A stretch of 64,000 nucleotides of DNA from Minisyncoccia bacterium (lineage in GTDB: Bacteria; Patescibacteriota; Minisyncoccia; Phycocordibacterales; UBA9973): assembly GCA_038249055.1 (NCBI GenBank), contig JBBRWS010000001.1, positions 78,244-142,243 on the forward strand. Direction: 5' to 3'. The notes below the pieces were generated by a model. That model was given only the letters and a program-made list of their open reading frames with translations, had not been told where the DNA came from and searched no databases. The position numbers and the translations under genes were made by a program. This document shows positions 22,375 to 39,635 of this stretch, one piece after another. The number at the start of each line of letters is the position of its first letter. The stretch's first letter is position 1.

Positions 22375-23658
22375 ATGAGTAAACTCATATGGACTACGGT
22401 CCAAAGAAAGGTTAATGATCTTATCCCTCAAAAGATCAATCCTCGTAAAATATCTGACAAGCAAATGTCAGATATCAAGAAAAGTTTGCAGAAGTATAAT
22501 TTAGTTGAGATTCCTGCTATTGATAAAACAGGAGTTATTTTGGCAGGACACCAAAGGATTAGGGCTTTACAGTTATTAGATCGTGGAGAAGAAATAATTG
22601 ATGTAAGAATTCCAAATAGAAAGCTTACAGAAATAGAATCGAAGCAATATCTAATTGCTTCAAATAAATTAGGTGGTGACTGGGATTATGATCTCCTTAA
22701 ATCTTTTAACATGGAGCTTCTTCAGCTCGCAGGGTTTGAAGATATGGAAATTGCTAAATTCTGGGATGATGATACAGAAGTTAAAAATGATTCTTTCGAT
22801 GTTGAAAAAGAATTAAAGAAAATAAAGGAACCTAAAACAAAATTAGGAGATATTATTATTCTCGGGAAACACAAAATTCTTTGTGGTGATTCAACTAAAC
22901 CAGAAAACTTAAAAAGATTACTAGGAGATGAGAAGGTGTCTATGATTTATAGTGACCCCGTCTACAATCTTGATATAGATTATGATGGTGGAATTGGTGG
23001 AAATAAAGAATACGGAGGTAGTGTAAAAGATTCCAGAACTTTTGAAGAATATAAAACATTTATTCGAGAAAGTTTAGAATCAGCACTTGCTGTATCTAAT
23101 CCGAATACTCACGTTTTCTATTATTGTGATCAAGTCTACATCGGATTAATTCAGGATATATACAGATCGCTTGGTGTATCTAATAAACGAGTGTGCTTGT
23201 GGCTGAAGAATTCACAGAACCCTGTACCTAAAATATTCTGTAATAAAGCATATGAACCTGCTGTCTATGGTATTCGTGGACGACCATACCTTGCAGAATC
23301 AGTAACAAATCTTAATGAAGTATTAAATAAAGAATTTGGAACAGGAAATGAACTTGTAGCACAAGTTGATGATTTTCTTGAGATTTGGACTGCTAAAAGA
23401 CTTTCCGCTAAAGACTATGAACATGCAACTTCCAAACCTATAACTCTCCATGAAAAAGCTATTAAACGTTGCACAAAACCGAATGACATAATTTTAGATA
23501 GTTTCTTGGGTTCAGGTAGCACTCTTCTTGCAGGAGAACAATTGGGTCGAAGAGTATATGGCTTAGAGCTTGAGCCAAAATTTTGTGACTTGATAATAAG
23601 ACGTTACGAATTATTTACTGGTAAAAAAGCTCAGATAGAATCCTATGAAGAAAAATAA
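22375..23658 (+). CDS. ParB-like nuclease domain fused to an N6-adenine/N4-cytosine DNA methyltransferase (beta class)
   Basis: ParB N-terminal domain (HQRIRALQLL). Motif IV SDPVY sits before the FxGxG motif I (ILDSFLGSGSTLLAG), which is the beta-class order. Confidence 0.75.
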   Translation: MSKLIWTTVQRKVNDLIPQKINPRKISDKQMSDIKKSLQKYNLVEIPAIDKTGVILAGHQRIRALQLLDRGEEIIDVRIPNRKLTEIESKQYLIASNKLGGDWDYDLLKSFNMELLQLAGFEDMEIAKFWDDDTEVKNDSFDVEKELKKIKEPKTKLGDIIILGKHKILCGDSTKPENLKRLLGDEKVSMIYSDPVYNLDIDYDGGIGGNKEYGGSVKDSRTFEEYKTFIRESLESALAVSNPNTHVFYYCDQVYIGLIQDIYRSLGVSNKRVCLWLKNSQNPVPKIFCNKAYEPAVYGIRGRPYLAESVTNLNEVLNKEFGTGNELVAQVDDFLEIWTAKRLSAKDYEHATSKPITLHEKAIKRCTKPNDIILDSFLGSGSTLLAGEQLGRRVYGLELEPKFCDLIIRRYELFTGKKAQIESYEEK

Positions 23659-24061
23659 ATCACAAGATCAATTCTTTGAAGAGTTGAGGAAAGTTCCCAT
23701 TGTCCAAGTCGCTTGTGAAAAAACAGGGCTATCTCGCAATAGTGTCTATCGTTGGAAAAAAGAAGATAGTGAATTCTCAAAAAAGATGGACCTGGCGATG
23801 GCTGACGGCGTTGCGTTCGTGAACGACATGAGCGAATCACAATTGCTTACTATGATCAAAGAAAAGAATTGGTCAGCAATTTCTTTTTGGTTGAAACATA
23901 GAAATGATAATTACAAGAGTAAGATAGAAATTACTACAAAAGAAGATTTTGAAGAGCTTACTCCTGAACAAGAAAAAATTGTTAGAGAAGCACTTAAACT
24001 AGGAGCAACTATTACCAATAATCAAAATGAAGATTATGGAAAAGATAAAAATAACTCCTGA
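23645..24061 (+). CDS. phage terminase small subunit-like HTH protein
   Basis: HTH segment VACEKTGLSRNSVYRWKKE; directly upstream of and overlapping the large terminase. Confidence 0.45.
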   Translation: MKKNKSQDQFFEELRKVPIVQVACEKTGLSRNSVYRWKKEDSEFSKKMDLAMADGVAFVNDMSESQLLTMIKEKNWSAISFWLKHRNDNYKSKIEITTKEDFEELTPEQEKIVREALKLGATITNNQNEDYGKDKNNS

Positions 24062-25499
24062 GTTGATGGAGATAATGATTAAGGATCGTAAAGTAAGAAC
24101 TGAAATCACCAAGAAAAGTCATTGGTTTTTCTTTCATTTCTATTTTTCTCACTACGTAAAATACGAGACTGCTCCATACCAAAATGAAATATTTAATCTT
24201 ACTCAAAATGAGGACTTGGGCAACTTATATATTGTTGCCTTTAGAGGAAGTAGTAAATCGACAATTCTAAATACATCTTATTCAATCTGGTCAATTCTAG
24301 GAGAACAACAGAAAAAATTTGTTTTAATTTTAAGTAAAACACAAACTCAAGCAAAGCAACACATGATGAACCTAAGAAGTGAATTAGAAAGTAATAATCT
24401 TCTAAAAAATGACTTAGGTCCGTTTAAAGAATTTTCAGAGGAATGGGGTTCTTTCTCTTTGGTCTTTTCAAAATTGAATGCCAGAATTACTGTTGCTTCT
24501 TCTGAGCAAAGTATTAGAGGATTAAGACATAATCAGAATAGGCCTGATCTCGTTATAGGAGATGACGTGGAAGATGTAGATTCAGTAAAAACCAGAGAAG
24601 GAAGAAATAAAACTTACGAGTGGTGGACTAGTGAAGTAATTCCAATTGGACAAAAGAATACTAGATTTGTACTTATTGGAAATCTTTTACATGAAGATTC
24701 TTTGTTAATGAGAATAAAAGAAAATGTTGATAAAAAAGAAATTGATGGAATATTTAAGGAATATCCATTAATTAGAAATGAAAATATACTATGGCCAGGT
24801 AAATATCCTTCAATGGAAGAAGTTGAAAATGAAAGAAGAAAAGCAGGTAATGAATATTCTTGGCAAAGAGAATATTTATTACATATAGTTCCAAATGAAG
24901 AACAAGCTATTTATCGTGAATGGATAATGTACTACAACGAAATACCAAAGGGTTTGAAAGACTGGCAAGGATATTCAATGAATGAGGAAATTAGAATAGG
25001 TATAGATTTAGCAATCTCTCAAAAAGAAACCGCTGATTATACTGCCATGGTTCCTGCATTAGTTATGGGAGAAGGTAAAGAAACTAAAATATATATCTTA
25101 CCTAAAATTATTAATAGAAGAATGACTTTCCCTGAGACTGTCGATTTATGTAAAGTGATTCATACTTCTTATTGTGAAAAAGATTGGAAAACCCCAACTT
25201 TAGTAATTGAAGATGTCGCTTATCAAAGAGCATTACCTCAACAATTAGAAAATGAAGGTATCACTAATGTAAAAACAATTAGACCTGGTAATCACGATAA
25301 AAGAAGTAGACTTGTTATGACTGCTCCAATGATAAAGTCTGGAAAAATTCTTTTCCCTCTAACAGGAGCAGAGGAATTAATTTCTCAGATTGTTCATTTT
25401 GGTGTAGAAAAACATGATGACTTAGCTGATGCCTTTTCAAATGTTGTATTAAATGTTCTTGAGGATCCTCCTTATGTGCCCAGATTCTTTTTTGTTTAG
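24027..25499 (+). CDS. phage terminase large subunit
   Basis: Walker A-like AFRGSSKST, Walker B-like LVIGDDVEDVD, C-terminal nuclease-like region. Confidence 0.7.
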   Translation: MKIMEKIKITPELMEIMIKDRKVRTEITKKSHWFFFHFYFSHYVKYETAPYQNEIFNLTQNEDLGNLYIVAFRGSSKSTILNTSYSIWSILGEQQKKFVLILSKTQTQAKQHMMNLRSELESNNLLKNDLGPFKEFSEEWGSFSLVFSKLNARITVASSEQSIRGLRHNQNRPDLVIGDDVEDVDSVKTREGRNKTYEWWTSEVIPIGQKNTRFVLIGNLLHEDSLLMRIKENVDKKEIDGIFKEYPLIRNENILWPGKYPSMEEVENERRKAGNEYSWQREYLLHIVPNEEQAIYREWIMYYNEIPKGLKDWQGYSMNEEIRIGIDLAISQKETADYTAMVPALVMGEGKETKIYILPKIINRRMTFPETVDLCKVIHTSYCEKDWKTPTLVIEDVAYQRALPQQLENEGITNVKTIRPGNHDKRSRLVMTAPMIKSGKILFPLTGAEELISQIVHFGVEKHDDLADAFSNVVLNVLEDPPYVPRFFFV

Positions 25500-25577
25500 A
25501 GGAAGCATACGACCACACTACGTATCTTTAGTTTTGCATAGGCTTAGCAAAAGACTAAATCTCTGACATCATTAGGT

Positions 25578-26900
25578 ATGGAAACAACCAATATAGGGCT
25601 AATATATAACCCAATAATAGCAACCGAAACAAGGATTAAATATGTGCTGTATGCACGAAAATCGACTGAATCTGATGAGCAACAAGCTTTATCAATAGAT
25701 TCTCAAGTTAAGGAAATGACAGCCATAGCAGAGCGTTTAAAGCTCAATGTAGTAGCCATAAAAAGAGAATCACACTCAGCTAAAGCCTCAGGTCAAAGAC
25801 CTGTATTTAAAGAACTATTAGAGGAGATTAATAAAGGTATCTATAACGGAATACTAACCTGGGCACCTGATAGACTTTCAAGAAATGCAGGAGATCTAGG
25901 TACTGTTGTTGACCTTATGGATGAAAAGAAATTAATTCATATCCAAACCTTTGGACAAACTTTTTCTAATTCACCAAATGAAAAATTTCTCCTAATGATT
26001 TTATGTTCTCAAGCAAAACTTGAGAATGATAATAAAAGTATAAATGTAAAACGTGGACTAAGAGCGAGGGTAGAGATGGGTTTGTGGCCGTGCCGTCCAC
26101 CAACTGGTTATACAAAGTTTAAAAGAATGGATCAGAAATGTGAATCAATTATTGATCCAGTTCGTGCACCTGTAATAAAACAAATATTTGAAAAAGTTGG
26201 TTATCAAAATTGGAGTGGTAGAAAAGTATTTCATTGGCTAAAGCATGATCTTGATTTTAAAACAGAAACTAATATGCATTTAAGTTTGGGTAATTTATAT
26301 GTTCTACTTTCAAATACTTTCTATTATGGAAAGTTTGAGTTTCCAAAAGGATCAGGTAATTGGTACAACGGAGCACACGAACCGATCATCTCAAAAGAAT
26401 TATATGATTTAGTTCAAGGACAAATTAAAAGCCAAACCATGGAACCAAGATCTAAACAAAAAGAATTCGCATTCACTAGAATTATGACTTGTGGTTTGTG
26501 TGGTTCAGGAATTACAGCTGATGAGAAATTTAAACATCATAAGGATGGAACATCTAGTCGCTATGTTTACTACAAGTGTACTAGGACGAAAGATTCAAAG
26601 TGTAAAAGTGGTTACATAAACGAAGATGACTTAATCAATCAGTTACAGAATCTTATTGATGACCTTGAAATACAGACGGTCCCGATGAGAGAAAAGATTA
26701 CAAGTGAGGTAAAAAGATTTAAGATTTTTGAAAGTATGTTATTAGGAAGAAAAAGCCCTGTGGTTATTAAAGATATAGATATACGTAATTATGCCAAGTT
26801 TATACTCCAAGAGGGGTCTATGGAGGAAAAGAGGGAGTTCTTAGGATGTCTGAAAAGTGAGATATTATTAAGTAATAAGAAAATTGAACTAAAGGTTTAG
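25578..26900 (+). CDS. large serine recombinase (resolvase/invertase N-terminal domain + recombinase domain + zinc ribbon)
   Basis: YVLYARKSTESDEQQALSIDSQ catalytic-serine region; CGLCGSG...YYKC zinc ribbon. Confidence 0.85.
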   Translation: METTNIGLIYNPIIATETRIKYVLYARKSTESDEQQALSIDSQVKEMTAIAERLKLNVVAIKRESHSAKASGQRPVFKELLEEINKGIYNGILTWAPDRLSRNAGDLGTVVDLMDEKKLIHIQTFGQTFSNSPNEKFLLMILCSQAKLENDNKSINVKRGLRARVEMGLWPCRPPTGYTKFKRMDQKCESIIDPVRAPVIKQIFEKVGYQNWSGRKVFHWLKHDLDFKTETNMHLSLGNLYVLLSNTFYYGKFEFPKGSGNWYNGAHEPIISKELYDLVQGQIKSQTMEPRSKQKEFAFTRIMTCGLCGSGITADEKFKHHKDGTSSRYVYYKCTRTKDSKCKSGYINEDDLINQLQNLIDDLEIQTVPMREKITSEVKRFKIFESMLLGRKSPVVIKDIDIRNYAKFILQEGSMEEKREFLGCLKSEILLSNKKIELKV

Positions 26901-29305: not shown

Positions 29306-30337
29306 ATGGAACACGAAAAACAAAATGAAGTGTTATTAGAAAACAAAGAAGAAATATCAAATCACTTACTTGAGGTTAAGGCGGTTAAAAAGGACCGTAT
29401 ACTTTCTGCAAGTATTTTAATCTCTTCTATTATTTTAGGTGGAGCTTTAATCTATACTGTAGGACCTAAGAGTTCGACAGGACAGAGTGCAAATGCTGCG
29501 GGACAACAAACACCATTATCGGAATTAGAAGGAAAAGTTTTACCAGCAAAGGGTGTAACACTGCCTGTGGTTTGGGGCGATCTAGGAGCAAAATTAGTAG
29601 ATGCTGGCGTTATTGATGCAGATAAATTCAAATCAATCTACGAACAAAGAGGTCAGTTTACAGAAGAATATAGAAAATTACTTCTTGACCAAAACAATGG
29701 AAAAATAAAAATAACGAAAGAAAATTCTGGTTATATTTTGAATCTATTTTGGGCTCTTGGTTTAGCGAACAAGAATGAGATATTAGAAAAAGGAGAAATG
29801 GTAGATCCTCAGTATGGAGGGGCAAAAGGATTTGCTTCAACTGGAGGTTGGACTATTGCTAAAGGTGGAGCAATGGAACATTACAGTAAACATACACTAG
29901 TTAATCTGACACCTGAACAGCAAGCCCTTGTAGATAAAGTATCTCGTGGTATATATCGTCCATGTTGTGGTAATTCAGTTCATTTTCCTGATTGTAATCA
30001 CGGAATGGCAATGCTTGGATTGCTTGAGTTAATGGCTTCACAAGGTGTTAGTGAACAAGATATGTGGAATACAGCACTAACTGTCAATTCATACTGGTTC
30101 CCAAATAATTACCTAACTATTGCTACTTACATGCAAAGTAAAGGTATTGATTGGAAGAATGTTAATCCACAAGAAATGCTAAGTGCACAGTATTCTAGTT
30201 CTAGAGGTTATGCCAATATTGCTTCTCAAGTAACACAGCCTAGTAGTCAGAGTGCTGGTGGAAGTGGTTGTGGTTTAGGTGATGCTGGTGCGTCTGCTCC
30301 TGCCCCTCAAAGTCAGCAGACTGGTTGCGGGTTGTAA
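29306..30337 (+). CDS. membrane-anchored protein with Cys/His motif (RPCCGNSVHFPDCNHG) and a Gly/Ser/Cys-rich tail
   Basis: N-terminal TM helix; possible metal-binding motif; sits in the metal island. Confidence 0.45.
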   Translation: MEHEKQNEVLLENKEEISNHLLEVKAVKKDRILSASILISSIILGGALIYTVGPKSSTGQSANAAGQQTPLSELEGKVLPAKGVTLPVVWGDLGAKLVDAGVIDADKFKSIYEQRGQFTEEYRKLLLDQNNGKIKITKENSGYILNLFWALGLANKNEILEKGEMVDPQYGGAKGFASTGGWTIAKGGAMEHYSKHTLVNLTPEQQALVDKVSRGIYRPCCGNSVHFPDCNHGMAMLGLLELMASQGVSEQDMWNTALTVNSYWFPNNYLTIATYMQSKGIDWKNVNPQEMLSAQYSSSRGYANIASQVTQPSSQSAGGSGCGLGDAGASAPAPQSQQTGCGL

Positions 30338-30353
30338 TTAAATACATTGATTT

Positions 30354-30587
30354 ATGAAAGAAAAAATAATTCATCAGCTTAAGATTGAAGAAAACAAGAT
30401 TAAAAGAATAATCAAAGCTATTGATAGTAATAAATGTATAGATGATGTTCTTGTTCATATAAGTGATGCTAAGAAAACATTATTAACTATTAGATGTATG
30501 ATTTTACAAGAATATCTATTAAAGGTTGCAAAACAAAACAACTTTCCTAAAAATAAAGTTCTTAAATATTACAAATTAACAAACTAA
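30354..30587 (+). CDS. CsoR/RcnR-family metal-sensing repressor-like protein
   Basis: 77 aa; KIKRIIKAIDSNKCIDDVLVHISDAKK resembles the CsoR helix with the conserved Cys. Confidence 0.45.
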   Translation: MKEKIIHQLKIEENKIKRIIKAIDSNKCIDDVLVHISDAKKTLLTIRCMILQEYLLKVAKQNNFPKNKVLKYYKLTN

Positions 30588-30609: not shown

Positions 30610-32376
30610 ATGAATAAAATTATGAAAAATAAAGAATTTAAAAAAGTAAAACTTAAAATCCATGGTATGCACTGTGCAAGCTGTGAAGTCTTGATAGAAC
30701 GAAAATTCAAAAATGTTTCTGGGGTAGAAAAAGTTAATATTAATCATGCAAGTGGACACGCGGAACTCATATGTTCACAGGAACCAAATCTAAAACAATT
30801 AAATAGTCTAGTTAATGATGATGGTTATCATGTAACTACTTGGGAAGATCGTAATGAAAGTATTCCTGATAATCTTGTTAAAAAAAATAAAGCGATTGAT
30901 TACTTACAGATGGGGTGGATTTTCCTAATAATTGTTTCTTTATATTTTATATTGAAACAATTTGATTTTCTTCCAAGTATTTCTGTTGATGGCAGTATGA
31001 GTTATGGTGTTATATTTGTTATTGGATTAGTAGCGGCTGTTTCTTCGTGTATAGCTGTAGTCGGAGGGTTATTATTAGCACTTGCGGAAAAATATAACGA
31101 AGCACATCCTAATCTTACTGGAGTTCAAAAATTTAAACCACACATATACTTCAACATTGGACGTGTTTTAGGATATACAGTGTTTGGTGCTTTAGTAGGA
31201 GCATTGGGTTCAGTCTTTACACTTTCTCCAAGAGCCAATGGATTCCTTATGGTATTTGTAAGTATCATAATGCTCATGCTTGGATTCCAATTATTAAATC
31301 TGTTTCCACAATTAAGAAGATTTAGTCCAAGAATGCCAAAATGGATTAGTCACAAAATTCATGATTTAAGTGGAAAAGATAATAAAGGTGCCCCAATGAC
31401 GCTGGGTGCCCTAACCTTCTTTCTTCCTTGTGGATTCACTCAAGCATTACAGTTATATGTTTTAGCTAGTGGTGATTGGAAAGTTGGAGCATTAACAATG
31501 CTTGTGTTCTCTTTGGGAACAATGCCAGCATTAGTGTCATTAAGTGCGGTATCTAGTTTTGCAAAAGGTGTATTTCAAAAACACTTCCTTCGGTTTGCAG
31601 GGGTCTTAGTTGTTATGCTTGCGTTGTTCAACATAAATAATGGGATAACTCTTGCTGGATACAATTTTAATCCAGCCGCAATTTTTGCTTCAAAATCAAG
31701 TGGTACAGAAAGTTCCAATATGCCTAAAGCAGAAATAGTGGATGGAAAACAAATTGTCAGAATGAAAGTTAGTGGTTACACTTATACTCCTAATAAATTC
31801 ACAGTTGTTGAGGGTATCCCTGTTGAATGGCAAATCGATGGAGCTTCTGCATCTGGTTGTGGAAAGGTAGTTGTTATGCCATCCTTGGGATTAAGTAAAT
31901 ATTTGTCACCTGAAGGTATTACAACAATAAACTTTACTCCAACACAAACAGGGACAATCCCATTTAACTGTAGTATGGGAATGATGACACGTGGATCTCA
32001 ATTTACGGTAATCCCAAACACTACTGGAATCGTTGGTGCAAAAATAGAAACCCCAGTGGAAACACCAACACCAGCATGTGATCCTGCTGTCTCAAAATGT
32101 CCAGATACTCAAAAACTCTCTATTGAAGTTTCTCAAGAAAAAGGTGTTTACCCTAGATCATTAACTGCTAAAAAAGGGGTACCGATTGAATTAACAATAA
32201 ATAATAAAGTTGCACTTGGTGGCTGTATGTCTATTTGGGTTATACCTAAATACAATATTACTATGCCAATGAAAATTGGTGTTATTAAAAATACTTTTAC
32301 ACCGACAGAAACTGGCGTCTTAAATATTACTTGTAGTATGGGGTCGAAAATGGCTGAAATAATTATTAAGGATTAA
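30610..32376 (+). CDS. fusion protein: metal-binding HMA domain, polytopic permease-like domain, and two C-terminal cupredoxin-like (Cys/Met-rich) domains
   Basis: GMHCASCE (HMA); about 8 TM helices with LPCGFTQ; two repeats ending NCSMGMM and TCSMGSKM, resembling the cupredoxin_1 C...M site. Confidence 0.55.
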   Translation: MNKIMKNKEFKKVKLKIHGMHCASCEVLIERKFKNVSGVEKVNINHASGHAELICSQEPNLKQLNSLVNDDGYHVTTWEDRNESIPDNLVKKNKAIDYLQMGWIFLIIVSLYFILKQFDFLPSISVDGSMSYGVIFVIGLVAAVSSCIAVVGGLLLALAEKYNEAHPNLTGVQKFKPHIYFNIGRVLGYTVFGALVGALGSVFTLSPRANGFLMVFVSIIMLMLGFQLLNLFPQLRRFSPRMPKWISHKIHDLSGKDNKGAPMTLGALTFFLPCGFTQALQLYVLASGDWKVGALTMLVFSLGTMPALVSLSAVSSFAKGVFQKHFLRFAGVLVVMLALFNINNGITLAGYNFNPAAIFASKSSGTESSNMPKAEIVDGKQIVRMKVSGYTYTPNKFTVVEGIPVEWQIDGASASGCGKVVVMPSLGLSKYLSPEGITTINFTPTQTGTIPFNCSMGMMTRGSQFTVIPNTTGIVGAKIETPVETPTPACDPAVSKCPDTQKLSIEVSQEKGVYPRSLTAKKGVPIELTINNKVALGGCMSIWVIPKYNITMPMKIGVIKNTFTPTETGVLNITCSMGSKMAEIIIKD

Positions 32377-32389
32377 ATAAAATAAATAT

Positions 32390-32605
32390 ATGAATAAAAA
32401 TATTGTTTTTACAATAAAAGGCACTCACTGTAACTCTTGCAAAATATTGATTGAAGATGTTTGTAAGGATATTAAAGGAGTTAAATCGTGTTGTGTGGAT
32501 GTTCAAACAGGAAAAACATTATTAGAATATGATAAAAATTTTGACTTTGCTGTTTTTAAAAAAGAGGTCGAGGAATTAGGTCAGTATAAAGTAGAAATTA
32601 ATTAA
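32390..32605 (+). CDS. copZ: copper chaperone CopZ-like (single HMA domain)
   Basis: 71 aa; GTHCNSC metal-binding motif. Confidence 0.7.
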
Positions 32606-32606
32606 T

Positions 32607-35600
32607 ATGAATACAAATAAGTTATCCTTCTTAATAGAAGGAATGCATTGCGGTTCTTGTGAAATAATTATCAAGAATGAGTTGTCTGAATTACTTGGAG
32701 TAAGTGATATTTCTGTTAATTCTAAATTAGGGATAGCCGAGTTAACTCTTGATAGTTCAAAAAATAGCATTGAAGATGTCGTTTCAGCAATAAAACAAGC
32801 TGGATATAATGCCGAACTTCAATCTGAATCAAAAACTGAAGATGATAAAAAGGATGTAACAATCTCAACAAATTATTCGGATAGCAAAGAACCTTTAAAA
32901 ATTAAATTGGAATCAAAAACTTTAGCAGAGGGAAAAGTTTTAGAGGATGATAATGGAAAACATTATTTTGATGGGGTCATTAAAACTGATCGTTCCGCAG
33001 AATTTACAATTCCTGAGAACTCTCCTGAGATTGATAATTTGGTTGGTCAGTTGAGTAAAACAACTACTATCGCTCGATTGTTTGATATCGTATCAGGTGA
33101 AAGTTCTAATAAAGAAATAGTCAAACTTCCTCAATCTCAAAATAAATCCAGTGGAATAATACCTGTTGTGACTGAAAGCAATTCTAATCAAAGAATCAGT
33201 TTGTCTCTTTTTGGTATGCATTGTTCTTCATGTGCAAACATCATTGAACGGTCTTTAAAGAAAGTGCCAGGTGTTAAACAAGCTAATGTTAACTTTGCTG
33301 CAGAAAAAGCAAGTATTGTTTATGATCAATCACAAGCAACAACACAGAATTTAATTGACGCTATAGGCAAGGCTGGCTATAAAGCAGAATTAGTTGATTC
33401 GAAAGATGGAGATTATGAACGCAAAAAACGTGAAAAACAAACTAATTTATTCTTTAAATTATTTTGGTATAGTTTTGCTTTGAGTGTCCCAATGTTGTAC
33501 TTCATGCTACTAGATTTCTTTGCCATACCAGGGAAAACAGCAGTTCTGCCGTATGTTGGTATTATTTCTCTTGTATTAACTATCCCAATTCAATTTATAA
33601 TTGGATCAGGTTTTTATAAAGGAATGTGGTCATCGCTCAAAATGAAAACGTTCAATATGGACAGTTTGATTGCTATTGGTACATCCACAGCTTTCTTTTA
33701 TAGTTTATTTAATTTTGTAAATTACTTTGTAAAAACTGGATCATTAATAGGTCTTAATGGAAAAATTCCAGAGTTATATTTTGAGACAGCAGCATTTTTA
33801 ATCACATTTGTCATTCTTGGAAAATGGTTAGAAATAAGAACAAAGAGTAAAACAGGAGATGCTATTAAAAAATTGATGGGGTTACAAGCTAAAACTGCAC
33901 GTGTAATTAGAAACGGAGTTACCATTGATGTGCCAGTTGAAGATGTAATACATGGTGATATCATTATGGTTCGTCCAGGTGAAAAAATACCTGTAGATGG
34001 AAAAATAACGAAAGGAATATCTGCAATAGATGAATCAATGATTACAGGTGAAAGTCTACCTGTTGAAAAGAAAGTTGGAGATAATGTAATTGGAAGTACA
34101 GTAAACAAAACAGGTAGTTTTGAATTTGAAGCTACTAAGGTTGGAAGTGAAACGGCTTTAGCTCAAATAATCCGATTGATTGAAGATGCTCAAGGTTCAA
34201 AAGCTCCAATTCAAGGATTTTCAGATAGAATATCTGCAGTCTTTGTGCCGATAGTTATTGGTATTGCAATACTAACTTTTGTAGTTTGGTATTTGTTTTT
34301 AGGATCAACACTAGCTTTTGCATTAATGGCATTTACTGCCGTAATTGTAATAGCCTGTCCTTGTGCCTTAGGTTTAGCTACACCAACATCATTGATGGTT
34401 GGTACAGGTAAAGGTGCTGAATACGGTATCTTAATAAAGGGTGGCGAACCATTAGAAGCAGCTTGTCACATAAATACTGTTGTGTTTGATAAAACTGGTA
34501 CTTTAACAAAAGGTAAACCAGAAGTTACAGATATTATTTCTTTTGAAAGTACAGATGAAGATGAAATATTAACAATTTCTGCAAGCCTAGAGAGATTGTC
34601 AGAACATCCTTTAGCAGAAGCAATTTATACTTATGCAAATGAAGAATCAGTTAGCTTAGATGAGGTTAAAGACTTTTCAGCTATTCCAGGGCATGGTGTA
34701 AAAGGTACAATTGATAATACCGAATATTATTTTGGAAATCGTCGTTTGATCATAGATATCCTTGGTCTTTCTATTAGTAAAGTTGATCGCAAGTTAACTA
34801 AATTAGAAGAGCAAGGAAAAACAGCGATGATTCTAGCTACTAAAGAAAAAATATTAGGTGCTGTTGCTGTTGCTGACACTGTGAAGCCTACCTCTTTTGA
34901 GGCTGTAGCTAAATTGAAAAAAATGGGAATCACAGTATATATGATTACTGGTGATAATGAACGAACTGCCAGAGCAATTGCTTCTCAAGTTGGAATTGAA
35001 AATGTTTTAGCTGAAGTATTACCAGAAGACAAAGCAAATGAAGTTAAAAAACTTCAACAAAACAACAATAAAGTTGCGATGGTCGGAGATGGTATCAATG
35101 ATGCCCCTGCTCTTGCACAAGCGAATCTTGGTATAGCCATGGGTTCTGGAACTGATGTAGCTATGGAAACAGGAGGTATTGTGATAATGAAAAATGATTT
35201 AAATGATGTTGTTACTGCATTTCAATTATCAAGAGAAACAATGTGGAAGATTAAACAAAATATGTTTTTTGCATTATTCTATAACATAATTGGAATACCT
35301 ATTGCAGCCCGTATATTTATAGGTTTTGGACTAGTCTTAAAACCTGAATTAGCTGGTCTTGCAATGGCGTTAAGTTCTATTTCAGTAGTTGGTAATTCCT
35401 TATTATTAAAATACTTTAAACCAAATAAGAGAAATTATATATCATTAATTGCTCCGCTTGTGATGGTCCTTGTATTTACATTTGGATTTATAGAATTTGC
35501 TAAATTAAGTTCAGGTATGGAAAATGAAGGACCTAAACCAATGGTATCTATTGAGGGTGCATCAACACTTAATACATTTATCGCAAATGGACAGACCAAG

Positions 35601-36293
35601 ATAAATTTTGCCGAAGGTAATCCTAAATTATTTTTAGGAGCAAATAGTATGCCAGGCATGTTGAAAGCTAATCAAGGTACCTTAGTTTTAGGTGATAACG
35701 AAATTATTATAGGTTACGATGAAGCAATGATGATGATAAAAGAAAACCTAATCAAAGGATCAGGAGACGTTTTGACAAACTTCTTTGGTTTGCCAAGTGT
35801 AAAAATTGTAGGAATTATTGAACCTACTGGAACATTGATTGATAGTTATCATTTCGTAAATAATGCAACATTGGCTAATATGACAAATGGAGCTACTGTT
35901 AAGTATGTCGCAGAAAAAGAAATTATAAAAAGTTTCTACTTTGATGTAGCACCTGTTGCTCCATTAATAGAAGTTACAGATTGGTACGGAGTAAAAACAT
36001 TTATCAAAGATCCAAAAGTGATTGTTGATGAAAGTATCCCAACACCAGAAAAATTAAAGAATAATATTCAAGGATTTAATGAGATATATTTAGGTGATAA
36101 AAAATATTTACCTATCTATATTGGATCTAGTGAAGCAAAAATGATGATAGACGCTAAATTGTTTACAAAAGTTGGTGATACAATTGAGAATTTCTTCGGT
36201 AATAATGTAATGGTCGCAGGAATATTACCAGAAACTAAAACCAGTCTTGATACAATGCATTTTGTAGGACAAGGGTTTGTATTAGTAAAATAA
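32607..36293 (+). CDS. copA: Cu+-exporting P1B-type ATPase (CopA) with two HMA domains and a ~270-aa C-terminal repeat-containing extension
   Basis: GMHCGSCE and GMHCSSCAN; TGES, CPC, DKTGT, GDGIND motifs. After the last canonical TM there is an extra hydrophobic helix plus a 250-aa domain with an internal duplication. Confidence 0.85.
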
Positions 36294-36308: not shown

Positions 36309-36710
36309 ATGAACAAAAAAATTGTTTTTTCATTATTTGGAGTTGTAATAGTTGGATTATCTATTCTCCTGTTGAAAGGTAGCAATATTGTACCCTCCAT
36401 TAAAGTAAATAATCAGCTTATTAGTAATGATAGTGTTGTTGTGGAGAGTGTAACAGCAGTATCTCCTAGTTGGCTTGTTATACAGACAGAGACTAATGGA
36501 ATACAGGGTCCTGTAATTGGATATACTAAAATCAATAAAGGTGAGAACAAAAATATCAGTGTTAAAATCGATTCAGGTCAAAAAACTCCTAAGCTCTTTG
36601 CTATGATACATGAAGATAATGGTGAAAAAAATAAATTTGATTTCCCTGATAATGATATGCCATTATTTTATAATGGTGAAATGGTTCTCCAATTATTTTC
36701 TATTGAATAA
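36309..36710 (+). CDS. secreted/membrane-anchored hypothetical protein
   Basis: signal-anchor; 133 aa. Confidence 0.4.
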   Translation: MNKKIVFSLFGVVIVGLSILLLKGSNIVPSIKVNNQLISNDSVVVESVTAVSPSWLVIQTETNGIQGPVIGYTKINKGENKNISVKIDSGQKTPKLFAMIHEDNGEKNKFDFPDNDMPLFYNGEMVLQLFSIE

Positions 36711-37037: not shown

Positions 37038-37277
37038 ATGATGTACGGAATATATAATGGGTGGGGTACGGGAAGTATGATGGGCTGGTTTGGTGGTAGT
37101 ATTATGATGGTTTTGTTTTGGGGAGCAATTATTTATTTCATTGTTTGGCTTGTTCATAATAATAAAACAAATGGAGAAAGTGGAAAGAAGTCCATTGATA
37201 TCTTAAAAGAACGATACGCCAAAGGTGAAATTGATAAAAAAGAATTTGAAGAAAAGAAAAAAGATTTAACTTCTTAA
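37038..37277 (+). CDS. SHOCT-domain membrane protein
   Basis: TM helix followed by [23 protein letters not shown] (SHOCT signature). Confidence 0.6.
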
Positions 37278-37394: not shown

Positions 37395-39635
37395 ATGAAT
37401 CATAACCATACTCACTCGATGGAAGGAGAAGAGAAAGCGATATATACCTGTGTCATGCATCCAGAAGTTCTTTCTGACAAGCCTGGTGTTTGTCCTAAGT
37501 GCGGAATGGTGCTTGTTAAAAAAGAAGAGGAAAAAATGGTTCACGATGTTCATTCTGGACATACGATGAGCAATCCATCAAAAATAAGTTTTTGGCAAAA
37601 ATTTAAAATGAGTATGTCTATGACTATGGGCATGGATCACACGGGTCTAGCTGGTCGAGAAATGTCTCGTCTTATGGAAATAGATATTCGTAATAAATTC
37701 TTTTTTTCTTTGATACTTACAATTCCAATAATTTTATATTCACCTCTAGGAACTGAATATCTAAAACTTAATCTACCATCTCCACTTCCTATTCCTTGGC
37801 TTCTTTTTGCTTTAACTACACCAGTATTTTTATATTCTGGATGGATTTTTCTATATTCAACATACTTCGCGTTGCGAGATAAGATGCTTAATATGGCAGT
37901 TCTTATTGCAGTCGGAATCACAGCAGCTTACGGCTTTAGTGTTTTACTAACCATACTTGGAAGTAGTGATTCGTATTATGAAGCTGCGGCTATGTTGATA
38001 ACATTTGTTCTCTTTGGTCATTGGATGGAAATGAAATCTCGTAGAGGGACGACTGATGCCTTGCAAGCACTATTTAATCTTGTACCTCCTCAGGCTAGAG
38101 TCTATAAAGATGGCAAAGAAATAATGGTTTCTACTTCTGACATACAACTAGGAGATATTGTTATCCTTAAACCAGGTGATAAAGTTCCTGTTGATGGAGA
38201 AATTATTGAAGGTGAAACCGCTATTGATGAATCTTTAGTTACAGGAGAATCAATTCCTACTTCTAAAAATATTGGGGATAAAGTAATTGGAGGATCAATC
38301 AATGTTACAGGTTCAGTAAAATTTAAGGCAACAAAAATCGGTAAGGATACTGCCTTAGCTCGAATTGTCGCAATGGTTGAAAAAGCACAAAATTCTAAAG
38401 CTCCAGGACAAAGACTAGCAGATAAATTTGCAAAATATCTTGTTATTGCAGCAGTAGGTTCAGGTCTTTTGGTATTTATTATTTGGTATTTTATTATTGG
38501 ATCACCACTTCTTTTAGCTCTCTCTTTTGCTATAGCCACAGTTGTTATTGCTTGCCCAGATGCTCTAGGATTGGCTACTCCGACCGCTGTTGCTGTTGGT
38601 ACAGGTCTCGGTGCTAAACATAATATTCTTATAAAAGATGCACCTACCCTTGAGCAGGTTTCAAAAATTCAAGCAATTGTTATGGATAAAACAGGTACGC
38701 TCACCGAGGGAAAACCAAAAGTAACCGATGTCGCAACAGTAGAAGGATTCGAATCAAACGAAGCACTTCGTCTAGTTGGTGCAGCCGAAGCAAAATCATC
38801 TCATCCATTAGCTGGTGCTGTTTTAGATGAGCTTAAGGTTCGCAATCTTACTCTACCAGAATCTGTTGAGAAGTTTGAAAATCTTTCAGGGCTTGGAGTA
38901 AAAGCTGTTGTTGATGGAAAAACTTTGCTGATAGGTACAGTTAAGTTAATGAAAGAGAATAATATTCCATTAGGTGTTTTGGAACAAAAAATAAATGAGT
39001 TTTTGGATAAAGGAGAGACGATTATGATTTTAGCTGTTGATGGAATGATTAAGGCTGTTGTTGGAGCACAAGATCCAATAAAACTTAATGCTTTAAAAGC
39101 AGTTGAGCGGATGAAAAAACTAGGAATTGAAATTGTCATGATCACTGGGGATAACAAAATGACTGCGGATAAGGTAGCTGGTCAAATAGGCATTCAAAGA
39201 GTTTTTGCAGAAGTTATGCCAGAAGATAAAGCCAGTTATGTTAAAAAGTTACAAGAGGAAGGTAAATTTACTGCAATGGTTGGAGATGGAGTTAATGATG
39301 CGCCTGCACTTGCTCAAGCTGATGTGGGCATTGCTATTGGTGCTGGTACTGATGTTGCTATCGAAACTGCTAAAGTCGTTCTAATGAAGTCTGACCCGTT
39401 AGACATACTTCGTGCAATTACTTTAAGTAAGGCAACTGTACGCAAAATGAAACAAAATCTTTTCTGGGCTTCAATTTATAATGTTTTAGCGATACCAATT
39501 GCAGGTGGAATTCTATATCCAAACTTTGGTATTATGCTCCGTCCAGAGTTTGCCGCACTTTTAATGAGTGTATCCTCCATAATTGTTGCAACAAATGCTG
39601 TGTTATTGAAACGAGTTGAAAAAGATCTAATATAG
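37395..39635 (+). CDS. heavy-metal P1B-type ATPase with His-rich/CxxC...CPKCGM N-terminal metal-binding region and an unusual CPD transmembrane motif
   Basis: YTCVMHPEV...CPKCGM; TGES, ACPDALGLATP, DKTGT, GDGVND. Confidence 0.85.
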   Translation: MNHNHTHSMEGEEKAIYTCVMHPEVLSDKPGVCPKCGMVLVKKEEEKMVHDVHSGHTMSNPSKISFWQKFKMSMSMTMGMDHTGLAGREMSRLMEIDIRNKFFFSLILTIPIILYSPLGTEYLKLNLPSPLPIPWLLFALTTPVFLYSGWIFLYSTYFALRDKMLNMAVLIAVGITAAYGFSVLLTILGSSDSYYEAAAMLITFVLFGHWMEMKSRRGTTDALQALFNLVPPQARVYKDGKEIMVSTSDIQLGDIVILKPGDKVPVDGEIIEGETAIDESLVTGESIPTSKNIGDKVIGGSINVTGSVKFKATKIGKDTALARIVAMVEKAQNSKAPGQRLADKFAKYLVIAAVGSGLLVFIIWYFIIGSPLLLALSFAIATVVIACPDALGLATPTAVAVGTGLGAKHNILIKDAPTLEQVSKIQAIVMDKTGTLTEGKPKVTDVATVEGFESNEALRLVGAAEAKSSHPLAGAVLDELKVRNLTLPESVEKFENLSGLGVKAVVDGKTLLIGTVKLMKENNIPLGVLEQKINEFLDKGETIMILAVDGMIKAVVGAQDPIKLNALKAVERMKKLGIEIVMITGDNKMTADKVAGQIGIQRVFAEVMPEDKASYVKKLQEEGKFTAMVGDGVNDAPALAQADVGIAIGAGTDVAIETAKVVLMKSDPLDILRAITLSKATVRKMKQNLFWASIYNVLAIPIAGGILYPNFGIMLRPEFAALLMSVSSIIVATNAVLLKRVEKDLI

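What the first reader, a model, noticed from the sequence alone, without database searches (positions are those of the whole stretch)
32607..36293. CopA-type Cu+ ATPase with extra C-terminal TM helix and a ~250-aa internally duplicated domain
After the eighth canonical TM (...[13 protein letters not shown]) the protein continues with another hydrophobic helix. Then comes a soluble domain made of two similar halves ([26 protein letters not shown]...HFVNN and [26 protein letters not shown]...HFVGQ). A ninth TM would place this Met/His-containing repeat domain outside the cytoplasm, at the exit side of the pump. I do not recall such a fusion being described for P1B ATPases. It could be a built-in periplasmic/extracellular copper acceptor or a regulatory domain.
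Basis: seen in the sequence. Interest (0 to 1): 0.6.

Follow-up and report, generated by a model that had tools for sequence, protein, structure and literature searches.

The report
Copper pump with built-in outside domain
A copper-exporting pump from a tiny uncultured bacterium carries an extra membrane helix and an undescribed two-part domain on the outer face of the membrane. The same domain is a separate gene beside the copper pump in tiny archaea, so it looks like a previously unnoticed partner that handles copper where it leaves the cell.

Summary
ORF 32607..36293 (1228 aa) is a complete Cu+-type P1B-1 ATPase with DKTGT, CPC, YN and MxxSS motifs and two HMA domains. After the canonical end (aa 940) it continues with a ninth hydrophobic helix (aa 944-966) and a 261-aa domain made of two homologous repeats (31% identity; z 16.8 against shuffles).

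The fusion is not an artefact. The same single open frame occurs in 7 of 10 related Patescibacteria genomes and in dozens of metagenome proteins.

The domain matches no Pfam or NCBIfam family at threshold. AlphaFold models are confident. One repeat alone hits only extracytoplasmic domains of type VII ABC permeases (MacB, LolC/E, YbbP, HrtB) as its 38 best PDB matches (TM 0.45-0.59), and weak sequence hits to MacB_PCD and YtrF agree.

A profile search found at least 55 stand-alone homologues (about 250-280 aa, N-terminal anchor helix). All five that carry names are from DPANN archaea. All eight contexts examined lie in copper gene clusters, four directly beside CopA.

Each repeat keeps an invariant E-x-x-x-M ... 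D-x-x-H set, and these are the only two His residues in the domain.

Best reading: a tethered extracytoplasmic acceptor or hand-off module for exported Cu(I). Copper binding is inferred, not shown.

I classify it as a new variant of a known kind, interest 0.65.

The parts
32607..36293 (+). Whole gene: Cu+-type P1B-1 ATPase (CopA) fused to a ninth TM helix and a tandem-repeat extracytoplasmic domain; 1228 aa plus stop
   Evidence: ORF list. TIGR01511 copper-translocating ATPase scores 628.8 bits against a cutoff of 397; PRK10671 CopA aligns aa 179-940 to model positions 88-837 of 838.
32619..32816 (+). First N-terminal HMA metal-binding domain (about aa 5-70, GMHCGSC)
   Evidence: Pfam HMA, two stretches; motif read in the translation.
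33201..33383 (+). Second HMA domain (aa 199-259, GMHCSSC)
   Evidence: Pfam HMA best stretch aa 199-259.
33444..35426 (+). Canonical pump core (aa ~280-940): eight TM helices and the A, P and N domains. TGE 480, CPC 584, DKTGT 628, GDGIND 827, YN 892, MALSS 920.
   Evidence: Pfam E1-E2_ATPase aa 426-604 and Hydrolase aa 622-840; motif positions; hydropathy.
35436..35504 (+). Ninth, non-canonical TM helix (aa 944-966, [23 protein letters not shown]), preceded by KPNKRN (cytoplasmic side)
   Evidence: Kyte-Doolittle peak 2.36; AF2 helix at model residues 7-33; flank charges +3.9 / -0.4 in 36 of 36 fused homologues.
35580..35894 (+). Repeat 1 of the extracytoplasmic domain (aa 992-1096), with a SABRE-like / MacB_PCD-like fold. 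Conserved G1036, E1039, M1043, G1053-D1054, G1061, T1074, D1079, H1082.
   Evidence: AF2 pLDDT 92.9, pTM 0.86. Foldseek top 38 PDB hits are all type VII ABC permease extracytoplasmic domains, TMq 0.45-0.59. Conservation over 106 sequences.
35895..36290 (+). Repeat 2 of the extracytoplasmic domain (aa 1097-1228). Conserved P1169, G1173, E1176, A1177, M1180, G1190-D1191, G1198, T1210, D1215, H1218.
   Evidence: Internal repeat statistics; AF2 of aa 938-1228 with pLDDT 86.5; conservation.
35952..36035 (+). Lineage-specific insertion of about 28 aa (aa ~1116-1143) at the start of repeat 2. It is absent from most homologues.
   Evidence: Alignment of the window with P0001-P0035; lower pLDDT of 69-83 in this stretch.
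32390..32605 (+). CopZ-like HMA copper chaperone gene. Its ORF ends one base before the pump's start codon.
   Evidence: Pfam HMA. The same gene order is seen in related loci L004 and L011.
30610..32376 (+). Operon partner: HMA + DsbD_2 membrane domain + extracytoplasmic cupredoxin-like domain(s). Candidate downstream acceptor.
   Evidence: Pfam HMA, DsbD_2, Cupredoxin_1. It recurs next to fused and split forms.
30354..30587 (+). CsoR-like metal-sensing repressor (sub-threshold Pfam match)
   Evidence: Trns_repr_metal E 7.8e-4, 20.2 bits against a cutoff of 22.8. A clear CsoR sits in the same position in L001, L004 and L011.

Best explanation
The gene encodes a normal Cu(I)-exporting P1B-1 ATPase. 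Its cytoplasmic C-terminus has been extended by one more membrane-spanning helix (TM9). TM9 carries a 261-aa domain to the outer face of the membrane. The domain is a tandem duplication of a ~105-aa module with the fold of the upper ('SABRE') part of the extracytoplasmic domain of MacB/LolC/FtsX-type (type VII) ABC permeases, but without their four-helix permease. The same two-repeat domain, anchored by its own N-terminal helix, is a separate gene in copper clusters of DPANN archaea, usually next to CopA. It is therefore a dedicated CopA partner that is fused in Patescibacteria and split in DPANN, much like a beta-subunit. Proposed mechanism (inferred): the helix packs against the pump's membrane domain and holds the tandem domain over the exit side. 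Cu(I) released in the E2P state is caught by a conserved Glu / Met / Asp / His site, one per repeat. It is then passed on to co-encoded cupredoxin-like extracytoplasmic proteins or released away from the membrane. This would prevent re-entry and surface damage in cells that lack a periplasmic CusF/CusCBA route. Shown here: the architecture, the repeat, the outside topology (indirectly), the fold relationship, the fused/split distribution and the gene linkage. Inferred: contact with the pump, copper binding and hand-off.
For: - **Pump identity:** P1B-1 signatures are present.
- **TM9 and topology:** hydropathy and predicted helix. Positive-inside flanks in 36 of 36 fused forms. Stand-alone forms have an N-terminal anchor with a mean charge of +0.9 on the N side and -0.4 on the C side.
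- **Repeat:** E 2e-12 and z 16.8.
- **Fusion is real:** 7 of 10 species-representative Patescibacteria genomes have one open frame of 1169-1238 aa containing DKTGT, CPC and the domain. Many metagenome fragments run from CopA M5-M6 through TM9 into the domain.
- **Fold:** AF2 gives pLDDT 86.5 for the whole C-terminal part and 92.9 for repeat 1. For the whole C-terminal part the 12 best Foldseek PDB hits are all type VII ABC extracytoplasmic domains, and for repeat 1 the 38 best are. Repeat 1 gives TMq 0.45-0.59 and probability 0.47-1.0 (0.87 or more for the 26 best).
- **Sequence echo of the fold:** the best PDB sequence hit of the repeat profile is the ABC permease YtrF, E 0.012. Pfam MacB_PCD is the top sub-threshold hit in three relatives, E 5.7e-4, 0.0091 and 0.045.
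- **Partner evidence:** at least 55 complete stand-alone homologues. All eight contexts examined are copper clusters. Four are directly adjacent to a 687+ to 731-aa CopA that lacks TM9. One is one gene away from CopA. One is followed by an HMA-starting ORF cut by the contig end. A cupredoxin-like gene is adjacent or one gene away in five.
- **Candidate site:** E, M, D and H are 87-100% conserved in both repeats across 106 fused and split sequences. They are the only two His residues in a Cys-free domain, and Met is enriched at 4.6% against 2.4%. In the YtrF alignment the Glu and Met positions are Phe and Leu, so they are specific to this family.
- **Precedents:** CopA hands Cu(I) to periplasmic CusF, which uses a His/Met site (PMC7558416). 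S. aureus CopL is an extracellular copper-binding lipoprotein encoded with a copper ATPase (PMC8546587).
Against: - Whether E1039, M1043, D1079 and H1082 cluster in space and are solvent-exposed is unknown.
- The invariant Met sits where MacB-type domains have a core Leu, so it may be structural.
- The His is replaced by N, Q, Y or V in a few stand-alone members.
- The domain is not Met-rich like CopC, PcoE or CusF.
- SABRE-type domains are known mainly for protein-protein and peptide binding (PMC8277102). That favours a docking role over direct metal binding.
- Contact between the domain and the pump's exit loops was not modelled.
Confidence: 0.5

Rival explanations
1. The domain is a non-metal-binding accessory or docking module. 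It is still outside the cell and still a CopA partner, but it works by protein-protein contact. Either it stabilises or matures the pump as the Na,K-ATPase beta-subunit or Cdc50 do, or it recruits the co-encoded cupredoxin-like acceptor to the exit site, as the LolC SABRE domain recruits LolA. The conserved E/M/D/H residues would then be interface or core residues.
For: [quoted passage not shown] Cupredoxin-like genes are adjacent or one gene away in five of eight stand-alone contexts, and the HMA-DsbD_2-cupredoxin gene sits in the fused operons. The Met aligns with a core Leu of YtrF. The His is not strictly invariant.
Against: The same four typical copper-ligand residues are 87-100% identical in both repeats, across bacteria and archaea that are only about 30% identical overall. 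This is more than a hydrophobic core or a generic interface usually shows. The two His residues are the only ones in the domain.
Confidence: 0.3
2. The domain acts by mechanotransmission. E1/E2 movements of the pump's helices are passed through TM9 to the MacB-like domain, which opens and closes to push copper, or a copper-loaded partner, away from the membrane, as MacB does with its substrates.
For: The fold relationship to MacB-type domains, whose function is mechanotransmission. The covalent link to a pump with large conformational cycles.
Against: MacB-type transmission needs two long stalk helices per protomer and a dimer of domains. Here there is a single anchor helix, a flexible low-confidence linker (pLDDT about 45 at model residues 31-39) and no porter subdomain detected. 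The split archaeal form is not covalently linked to the pump at all.
Confidence: 0.07
3. The extra helix does not span the membrane, and the domain is a cytoplasmic regulatory or metal-sensing tail, like C-terminal metal-binding tails of some P1B pumps.
For: C-terminal cytoplasmic regulatory or metal-binding domains exist in other P1B ATPases (PMC10654040). Topology was not measured.
Against: The helix is among the most hydrophobic in the protein. Charge flanks fit an inside-to-outside helix in 36 of 36 cases. All fold relatives are extracytoplasmic. Stand-alone homologues consist only of an N-terminal anchor helix followed by the domain. There are no Cys residues in the domain.
Confidence: 0.03
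4. The long ORF is an assembly chimera or a read-through artefact that joins CopA to an unrelated downstream gene.
For: Some relatives are called as separate overlapping genes (P0012, P0014, P0032).
Against: Those split calls lie inside otherwise fragmented CopA genes, so they are frameshifted copies. Seven independent genomes and many metagenome proteins carry the uninterrupted fusion. Composition is even across the junction. TM9 is conserved together with the domain.
Confidence: 0.01

Closest known systems
E. coli CopA handing Cu(I) to periplasmic CusF (Padilla-Benavides et al. 2014, as reviewed in PMC7558416)
   Same: A Cu(I) P1B-1 pump delivers the metal to an extracytoplasmic acceptor protein at its exit side rather than releasing it free. 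CusF uses a His/Met site, and the residues conserved here are also His and Met (plus Asp and Glu).
   Different: CusF is a small soluble OB-fold protein of diderm bacteria and feeds CusCBA. Here the candidate acceptor has a different fold (MacB-SABRE-like tandem). It is membrane-anchored or covalently fused to the pump, and it occurs in Patescibacteria and DPANN archaea, where no Cus system was seen in the clusters examined. There is no sequence or Pfam relationship.
Staphylococcus aureus CopL / B. subtilis YdhK (DUF1541), an extracellular copper-binding lipoprotein encoded with the copper ATPase CopB/CopX (PMC8546587)
   Same: A surface-tethered extracytoplasmic protein encoded next to a copper P-type ATPase in cells without an outer-membrane efflux route. 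Its proposed role is copper capture outside the membrane.
   Different: The fold and family are different. CopL is tethered by a lipid anchor rather than a TM helix and is never fused to the pump. CopL's copper binding is experimentally shown, and this domain's is not.
Periplasmic core domain (porter + SABRE) of type VII ABC permeases: MacB, LolC/LolE, YbbP, HrtB, YtrF, FtsX (Pfam MacB_PCD PF12704; PMC8277102)
   Same: Each repeat has the same fold as part of this domain (TMq 0.45-0.59, with the 38 best PDB hits all from this group). It also shares the beta-alpha-beta-beta sequence pattern. Weak sequence hits to MacB_PCD and YtrF agree. Both are extracytoplasmic.
   Different: There is no FtsX four-helix permease, no pair of stalk helices and no ABC ATPase partner. 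The module is duplicated in tandem and hangs from one helix. The family-specific invariant E/M/D/H set is absent from MacB-type domains. Pfam's threshold is not reached. The host machine is a P-type ATPase, a different transporter superfamily.
Single-pass accessory subunits of other P-type ATPases (Na,K/H,K-ATPase beta subunit; Cdc50 of P4 flippases; PMC10654040)
   Same: The archaeal split form is a membrane protein with a bulky extracytoplasmic domain, encoded with and presumably bound to the catalytic subunit. In the bacterial form the same unit is fused as an extra C-terminal helix plus domain.
   Different: There is no homology. No accessory subunit is listed for heavy-metal P1B pumps in the P-type ATPase review consulted (its figure legends attach the KdpFABC subunits to the label 'P1B', which I take to be a slip for P1A). 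Physical association is inferred here only from fusion and gene adjacency.

Membership tests
P1B-1 (Cu+/Ag+) P-type ATPase, CopA type | P-type catalytic motifs: DKTGT phosphorylation site, TGE in the A domain, GDGxND hinge | tested here: met
   DKTGT at aa 628, TGE at 480, GDGIND at 827. Pfam E1-E2_ATPase and Hydrolase are well above cutoff.
P1B-1 (Cu+/Ag+) P-type ATPase, CopA type | Cu+ transmembrane site signature: CPC in M4, YN in M5, MxxSS in M6 | tested here: met
   CPC at 584, YN at 892, MALSS at 920. TIGR01511 copper-translocating ATPase scores 628.8 bits against a cutoff of 397.
P1B-1 (Cu+/Ag+) P-type ATPase, CopA type | N-terminal HMA (CxxC) metal-binding domain(s) | tested here: met
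   Two HMA stretches, 105 bits in total; GMHCGSC and GMHCSSC in the translation.
P1B-1 (Cu+/Ag+) P-type ATPase, CopA type | Eight TM helices with a cytoplasmic C-terminus right after M6 | tested here: not met
   The core aligns to E. coli CopA up to model position 837 of 838 at aa 940. The protein then continues for 288 aa with a ninth helix and a further domain. This is the variant feature and does not exclude membership.
MacB/FtsX (type VII ABC) periplasmic core domain, Pfam MacB_PCD PF12704 | Reaches Pfam's gathering score for MacB_PCD | tested here: not met
   The window domain has no Pfam hit even at E <= 10. The best relatives give 20.7 bits (E 5.7e-4), E 0.0091 and E 0.045, against a cutoff of 27 bits.
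MacB/FtsX (type VII ABC) periplasmic core domain, Pfam MacB_PCD PF12704 | Three-dimensional fold of the domain (SABRE subdomain) | tested here: met
   The repeat 1 model (pLDDT 92.9) has MacB, LolC/E, YbbP, HrtB and the permease domain 3is6 as its 38 best PDB matches, TMq 0.45-0.59. Assigning the match to SABRE rather than porter rests on the contiguous ~110-residue alignment and on my recollection of the MacB and LolC sequences. It is an inference.
MacB/FtsX (type VII ABC) periplasmic core domain, Pfam MacB_PCD PF12704 | Inserted between TM1 and TM2 of a four-helix FtsX permease (PF02687) that pairs with an ABC ATPase | tested here: not met
   There is no FtsX hit in the protein. The domain follows a single helix at the C-terminus of a P-type ATPase, or a single N-terminal anchor in stand-alone forms. 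Neighbouring genes are copper genes, not ABC ATPases.
MacB/FtsX (type VII ABC) periplasmic core domain, Pfam MacB_PCD PF12704 | Porter (beta-alpha-beta x2) subdomain flanking the SABRE | tested here: inconclusive
Known extracytoplasmic copper chaperones and binders (CusF, CopC/PcoC, CopL/DUF1541, cupredoxins) | Sequence membership in the corresponding Pfam or NCBIfam families | tested here: not met
   No such family appears for the window domain or for eight stand-alone homologues at E <= 1 to 10.
Known extracytoplasmic copper chaperones and binders (CusF, CopC/PcoC, CopL/DUF1541, cupredoxins) | Demonstrated Cu(I)/Cu(II) binding through His/Met (or Cys) ligands | not testable with these tools
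   Only conservation of E, M, D and H in both repeats could be shown.

The most novel reading that the evidence does not exclude
This is the first extracytoplasmic accessory module of a heavy-metal P1B-type ATPase. It is a tandem SABRE-like domain recruited from the type VII ABC-transporter lineage. It sits at the pump's exit, binds the exported Cu(I) through a His/Met/Asp/Glu site in each repeat and relays it to cupredoxin-like surface proteins. It is encoded as a beta-subunit-like separate protein in DPANN archaea and fused through a ninth helix in Patescibacteria. If so, copper hand-off on the outside of the membrane is a general requirement that wall-less or monoderm-like ultra-small cells meet with their own dedicated protein.
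Probability: 0.35. Interest if true: 0.8.

Novelty: new variant of a known kind. Interest (0 to 1): 0.65.

Why it matters
How Cu(I) leaves a P1B pump and where it goes next is well studied only in E. coli (CopA to CusF). For monoderm bacteria and archaea the exit side is largely unexplored, and no accessory subunit is listed for heavy-metal P1B pumps in the review consulted.

A covalently attached exit-side domain gives a natural one-polypeptide system in which pump-to-acceptor transfer can be studied structurally and biochemically. The split archaeal version offers the matching two-protein system.

The finding also shows a domain typical of one transporter superfamily (type VII ABC) re-used by another (P-type ATPase). 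It defines an uncharacterised protein family that could be used to annotate copper-resistance loci in CPR and DPANN genomes. In the top-150 listing, about 95 cluster representatives at 50% identity carry most of the domain and further fragments carry part of it. All members that carry a name are labelled 'hypothetical protein'.

Tried and rejected
1. The first homologue search seemed to give stand-alone proteins (P0012, P0014, P0032). Their contexts show they are pieces of frameshifted or fragmented CopA fusions, so I did not count them as stand-alone.
2. The single deep profile search used alignment A1. Its profile unintentionally kept 62 positions of CopA helices M5-M6 (seen). Ordinary CopA hits therefore fill the lower ranks, and any very distant relatives of the domain were hidden. 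True stand-alone members still ranked high.
A single-protein scan worked but reaches only close relatives.
5. The search for homologous proteins with the 78-sequence repeat profile returned only 9 short fragments. With P0087 it returned 6 proteins. These searches gave names but no link to annotated MacB proteins.
6. A profile search of the PDB with A1 found only the CopA part. With the repeat profile A2 it gave YtrF at a marginal E of 0.012.
7. I considered modelling the pump together with the domain. I rejected this because the protein exceeds the 1200-aa limit and the tool returns no coordinates or PAE, so the domain-pump contact could not have been read.
8. I considered a Met-rich CopC/PcoE-like sponge. 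I rejected it because Met content is only 4.6% and there are no Met-rich runs.
9. I rejected the cytoplasmic-tail and chimera readings (see rival explanations).
Full report
**1. The observation**

The window has a single open frame at 32607..36293 (+) of 1228 aa.
- Pfam finds two HMA domains, E1-E2_ATPase (aa 426-604) and the HAD-type hydrolase domain (aa 622-840).
- NCBIfam places it in the copper-translocating P1B ATPases: TIGR01511 scores 628.8 bits against a cutoff of 397. E. coli CopA (PRK10671) aligns from aa 179 to aa 940, which corresponds to model position 837 of 838.
- The Cu+ signature is complete: TGE 480, CPC 584, DKTGT 628, GDGIND 827, YN 892, MALSS 920.

The canonical pump therefore ends, on the cytoplasmic side, at about aa 940.
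- There is a basic stretch (KPNKRN) and then a very hydrophobic segment at aa 944-966. Its Kyte-Doolittle peak is 2.36, second only to the M3/M4 region.
- After that come 261 residues with no Pfam or NCBIfam match even at E <= 10.
- The two halves of this tail are homologous. BLASTP gives 31% identity over 110 columns, E 2e-12. The local alignment score is 113 against 28.2 +/- 5.1 for 2000 shuffles (z 16.8, none reaching it).

**2. The fusion is real**

Composition is even across the junction. A first homologue search with aa 968-1228 returned 35 proteins. All sources that gave an organism name called them Parcubacteria or Patescibacteria. Every one that extends far enough upstream runs from CopA helices M5-M6 through the same extra helix into the domain.

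Three hits looked like separate genes (P0012, P0014, P0032). Each lies directly behind, and overlaps, pieces of a fragmented CopA gene, so these are frameshifted fusions and not independent genes.

A scan of one genome per species with the window's domain found ten loci. All are candidate-phyla-radiation type MAGs (Parcubacteria, Saccharibacteria, Peribacteria, Gracilibacteria and others), the closest 91% identical. In seven of them one uninterrupted frame of 1169-1238 aa contains DKTGT, CPC and the domain. Two are cut by contig ends, and one is a fragment.

**3. Topology**

Canonical CopA ends in the cytoplasm, so a further spanning helix puts the tail outside.
- In 36 of 36 fused homologues, the 12 residues before the helix carry a mean net charge of +3.9 and the 12 after it carry -0.4.
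- AlphaFold predicts one long helix there, followed by a low-confidence linker.
- The fold relatives (section 4) are all extracytoplasmic.
- The stand-alone homologues (section 5) are nothing but an N-terminal anchor helix plus the domain.
- The domain has no cysteine.

I regard the outside location as very likely. It has not been measured.

**4. What the domain is**

AlphaFold2 with a 36-sequence alignment gave a confident model of aa 938-1228: mean pLDDT 86.5, pTM 0.74. It shows a helix followed by two similar alpha/beta units. Foldseek against the PDB ranked type VII ABC-transporter extracytoplasmic domains in the first twelve places (LolE, YbbP, LolC, HrtB, MacB). TM-scores were low, as expected for a query made of a helix plus two units.

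I then modelled repeat 1 alone (aa 992-1096) with 78 sequences: pLDDT 92.9, pTM 0.86. Its 38 best PDB matches are all from the same group: MacB from three species, LolC, LolE, YbbP, HrtB and the permease domain 3is6. Query-normalised TM-scores are 0.45-0.59 and nearly the whole repeat is aligned. The next hits (p97 N domain) drop to TM 0.37.

Sequence evidence is weak but points the same way.
- The best PDB hit of the repeat profile is the ABC permease YtrF, E 0.012, aligned within its extracellular domain.
- MacB_PCD is the top sub-threshold Pfam hit in three relatives: E 5.7e-4, 0.0091 and 0.045, matching model positions ~119-198 of 207.

The literature describes this domain as a porter module with a 'SABRE' subdomain spliced in. 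SABRE is specific to the MacB/FtsX family and is used mainly for protein or peptide binding (PMC8277102). Each repeat aligns as one contiguous ~110-residue unit. It also carries the beta-alpha-beta-beta pattern that, as I recall the MacB and LolC sequences, lies in the SABRE part. I therefore read the tail as a tandem pair of SABRE-like units. That last assignment is an inference.

The domain is not a member of the MacB/FtsX transporter family. There is no FtsX permease, no pair of stalk helices and no ABC ATPase, and Pfam's threshold is not reached.

**5. The domain is a conserved CopA partner: fused in CPR bacteria, split in DPANN archaea**

A profile search of 1.84 billion cluster representatives gave 129 hits below 1e-30. 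The profile had unintentionally kept CopA M5-M6 columns, so some hits are plain CopA. Re-scoring the retrieved sequences with a domain-only HMM gave two groups.
- 36 sequences are fused to CopA, including full-length proteins of 954-1377 aa.
- At least 55 are complete stand-alone proteins of about 240-280 aa. Each has an N-terminal hydrophobic helix carrying a conserved G-(S/T)-x-x-Y-F motif, followed by both repeats.

All five stand-alone members (or close relatives) that carry an organism name are DPANN archaea: Woesearchaeota (two), Micrarchaeota (two) and Nanoarchaeota. All are labelled 'hypothetical protein'.

I examined eight stand-alone contexts, and all eight are copper gene clusters.
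- Four are directly adjacent to a CopA that lacks the ninth helix (three of 720-731 aa; the P0082 neighbour is 687+ aa and cut by the contig end): P0077, P0082, P0079 and P0087.
- One is one gene away from CopA: P0100.
- One is followed by an ORF that starts with an HMA domain and is cut by the contig end: P0067.
- Two are on short contigs among HMA and cupredoxin genes: P0088 and P0093.

A cupredoxin-like gene is adjacent or one gene away in five of the eight. In the fused loci, including the window, the operon order is the same: CsoR-like repressor, an HMA-DsbD_2-cupredoxin membrane protein, CopZ, then the pump. Fusion in one lineage and tight adjacency in another is classical evidence that the two parts work together.

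**6. A candidate functional site**

I compared 106 fused and split sequences that are only about 25-40% identical to the window in repeat 1. Both repeats keep the same set of residues at 87-100%:
- a Gly, then Glu and Met four residues apart on the helix (E1039/M1043 and E1176/M1180);
- a Gly-Asp, a Gly and a Thr;
- an Asp-x-x-His (D1079/H1082 and D1215/H1218).

The two His residues are the only ones in the 261-aa domain. Met is twice as frequent as in the rest of the protein. In the alignment to YtrF the Glu and Met positions are Phe and Leu, so they are specific to this family.

His, Met, Asp and Glu are the usual ligands of extracytoplasmic copper sites. CusF, which takes Cu(I) from E. coli CopA, uses one His and two Met (PMC7558416).

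There are caveats.
- The Met occupies a position that is a core hydrophobic residue in the related fold.
- A few archaeal members replace the His.
- I could not inspect the coordinates to see whether the residues cluster.

**7. Most likely mechanism**

Shown:
- a standard Cu(I) pump;
- an added ninth helix;
- an outside tandem SABRE-like domain (the outside location supported only indirectly);
- a family-wide link to CopA and to cupredoxin-type proteins.

Inferred:
- the helix (or the partner's anchor helix) packs against the pump;
- the domain sits over the exit;
- Cu(I) released from the pump is caught by the conserved His/Met/Asp/Glu site(s);
- the copper is then passed to cupredoxin-like surface proteins or released away from the membrane.

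The main rival keeps everything except direct metal binding. In that reading the domain is a docking or stabilising subunit, comparable to LolC recruiting LolA or to the beta-subunits of other P-type ATPases. The mechanotransmission, cytoplasmic-tail and artefact readings are unlikely, for the reasons given under rival explanations.

**8. Comparison with what is known, and novelty**

The pump core is an ordinary member of the P1B-1 family. The added module is not in Pfam (2025 copy) or NCBIfam (June 2026). Full-text searches and two reviews of P-type ATPases and bacterial copper homeostasis describe no extracytoplasmic domain or accessory subunit for heavy-metal P1B pumps. The search covers open-access papers only, so an earlier description cannot be excluded.

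The closest functional precedents are CopA-to-CusF transfer and the CopL lipoprotein of S. aureus. The closest structural relative is the MacB/LolC SABRE subdomain. I rate it a new variant of a known kind: a copper pump with a new exit-side module, which also defines a new protein family.

**9. Other points seen**

Relatives of this pump carry the ninth helix followed by different modules: a beta-propeller in P0094, an alpha/beta hydrolase in P0156 and a further 264-aa tail in P0185. The ninth helix may therefore be a general device in these lineages for displaying domains outside the cell.

The copper and metal cluster in the window follows genes that look like a mobile element, ending in a serine-recombinase-like gene at 25578..26900 (read from the translation only).

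Noticed in passing
window 30610..32376 (+): A 588-aa protein combines a cytoplasmic HMA domain, a DsbD_2 (CcdA-like) membrane domain, a Pfam-detected cupredoxin-like domain (aa 377-462) and a further ~125-aa C-terminal stretch that may be a second such domain (read from the sequence only). The same architecture recurs beside both fused and split forms of the new domain in CPR and DPANN loci. Its role (copper redox handling outside the cell?) is unknown.
   Followed up: partly
proteins P0094, P0156, P0185, P0121, P0113 (relatives found; Pfam): Related CopA pumps carry the same ninth helix followed by other modules: a YNCE/DUF5074-type beta-propeller (P0094), an alpha/beta hydrolase (P0156), the tandem domain plus a further 264-aa unassigned tail (P0185, 1377 aa), or long unassigned tails (P0121, P0113). 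The ninth helix may be a general way of displaying extracytoplasmic domains on the pump.
   Followed up: partly
window 22375..26900 (+): Just upstream of the metal-resistance cluster lie ORFs that, read from their translations, look like a ParB-like/DNA methyltransferase, a small HTH protein, a terminase-large-subunit-like protein and a serine recombinase (25578..26900). The copper island may be part of, or next to, an integrated mobile element. Not checked against any library.
   Followed up: no
window 29306..30337 (+): A 343-aa ORF with an N-terminal anchor helix and a Cys/His-rich motif (RPCCGNSVHFPDCNHGMAMLG). Its C-terminal Gly/Ser/Ala/Gln-rich tail contains three Cys and ends in ...TGCGL. 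It has no Pfam hit at E <= 0.01. It may be another undescribed extracytoplasmic metal-handling protein of the cluster.
   Followed up: partly
window 37395..39635 (+): A second P1B ATPase (746 aa) has an N-terminal HMBD zinc-ribbon-like metal-binding domain and a His/Met-rich leader. Its M4 motif reads CPD (IACPDALGLATP) instead of CPC. It ends normally after M6, without a ninth helix.
   Followed up: partly
window 32817..33200 (aa 71-198 of the pump): An unusually long (~130 aa) Ser/Asn/Lys-rich linker with no family match separates the two HMA domains of the pump.
   Followed up: no
window 36309..36710 (+) and 37038..37277 (+): Directly downstream of the pump are a secreted or anchored DUF7282 protein (133 aa) and a small SHOCT-domain membrane protein. 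A SHOCT gene also follows the CopA in the archaeal-type locus L006.
   Followed up: partly
loci L001 (3192-6690), L003 (5990-8507), L004 (5213-8621): In three assemblies the fused pump gene is broken into 2-4 overlapping calls. Judging only from their contig names, two of these may be long-read assemblies. The cause is either indel errors or real pseudogenes. This explains why parts of the domain appear in databases as small 'hypothetical proteins'.
   Followed up: partly
proteins P0034, P0035: A subgroup of fused pumps carries only one repeat (the second) after the ninth helix. The duplication is therefore not obligatory.
   Followed up: no
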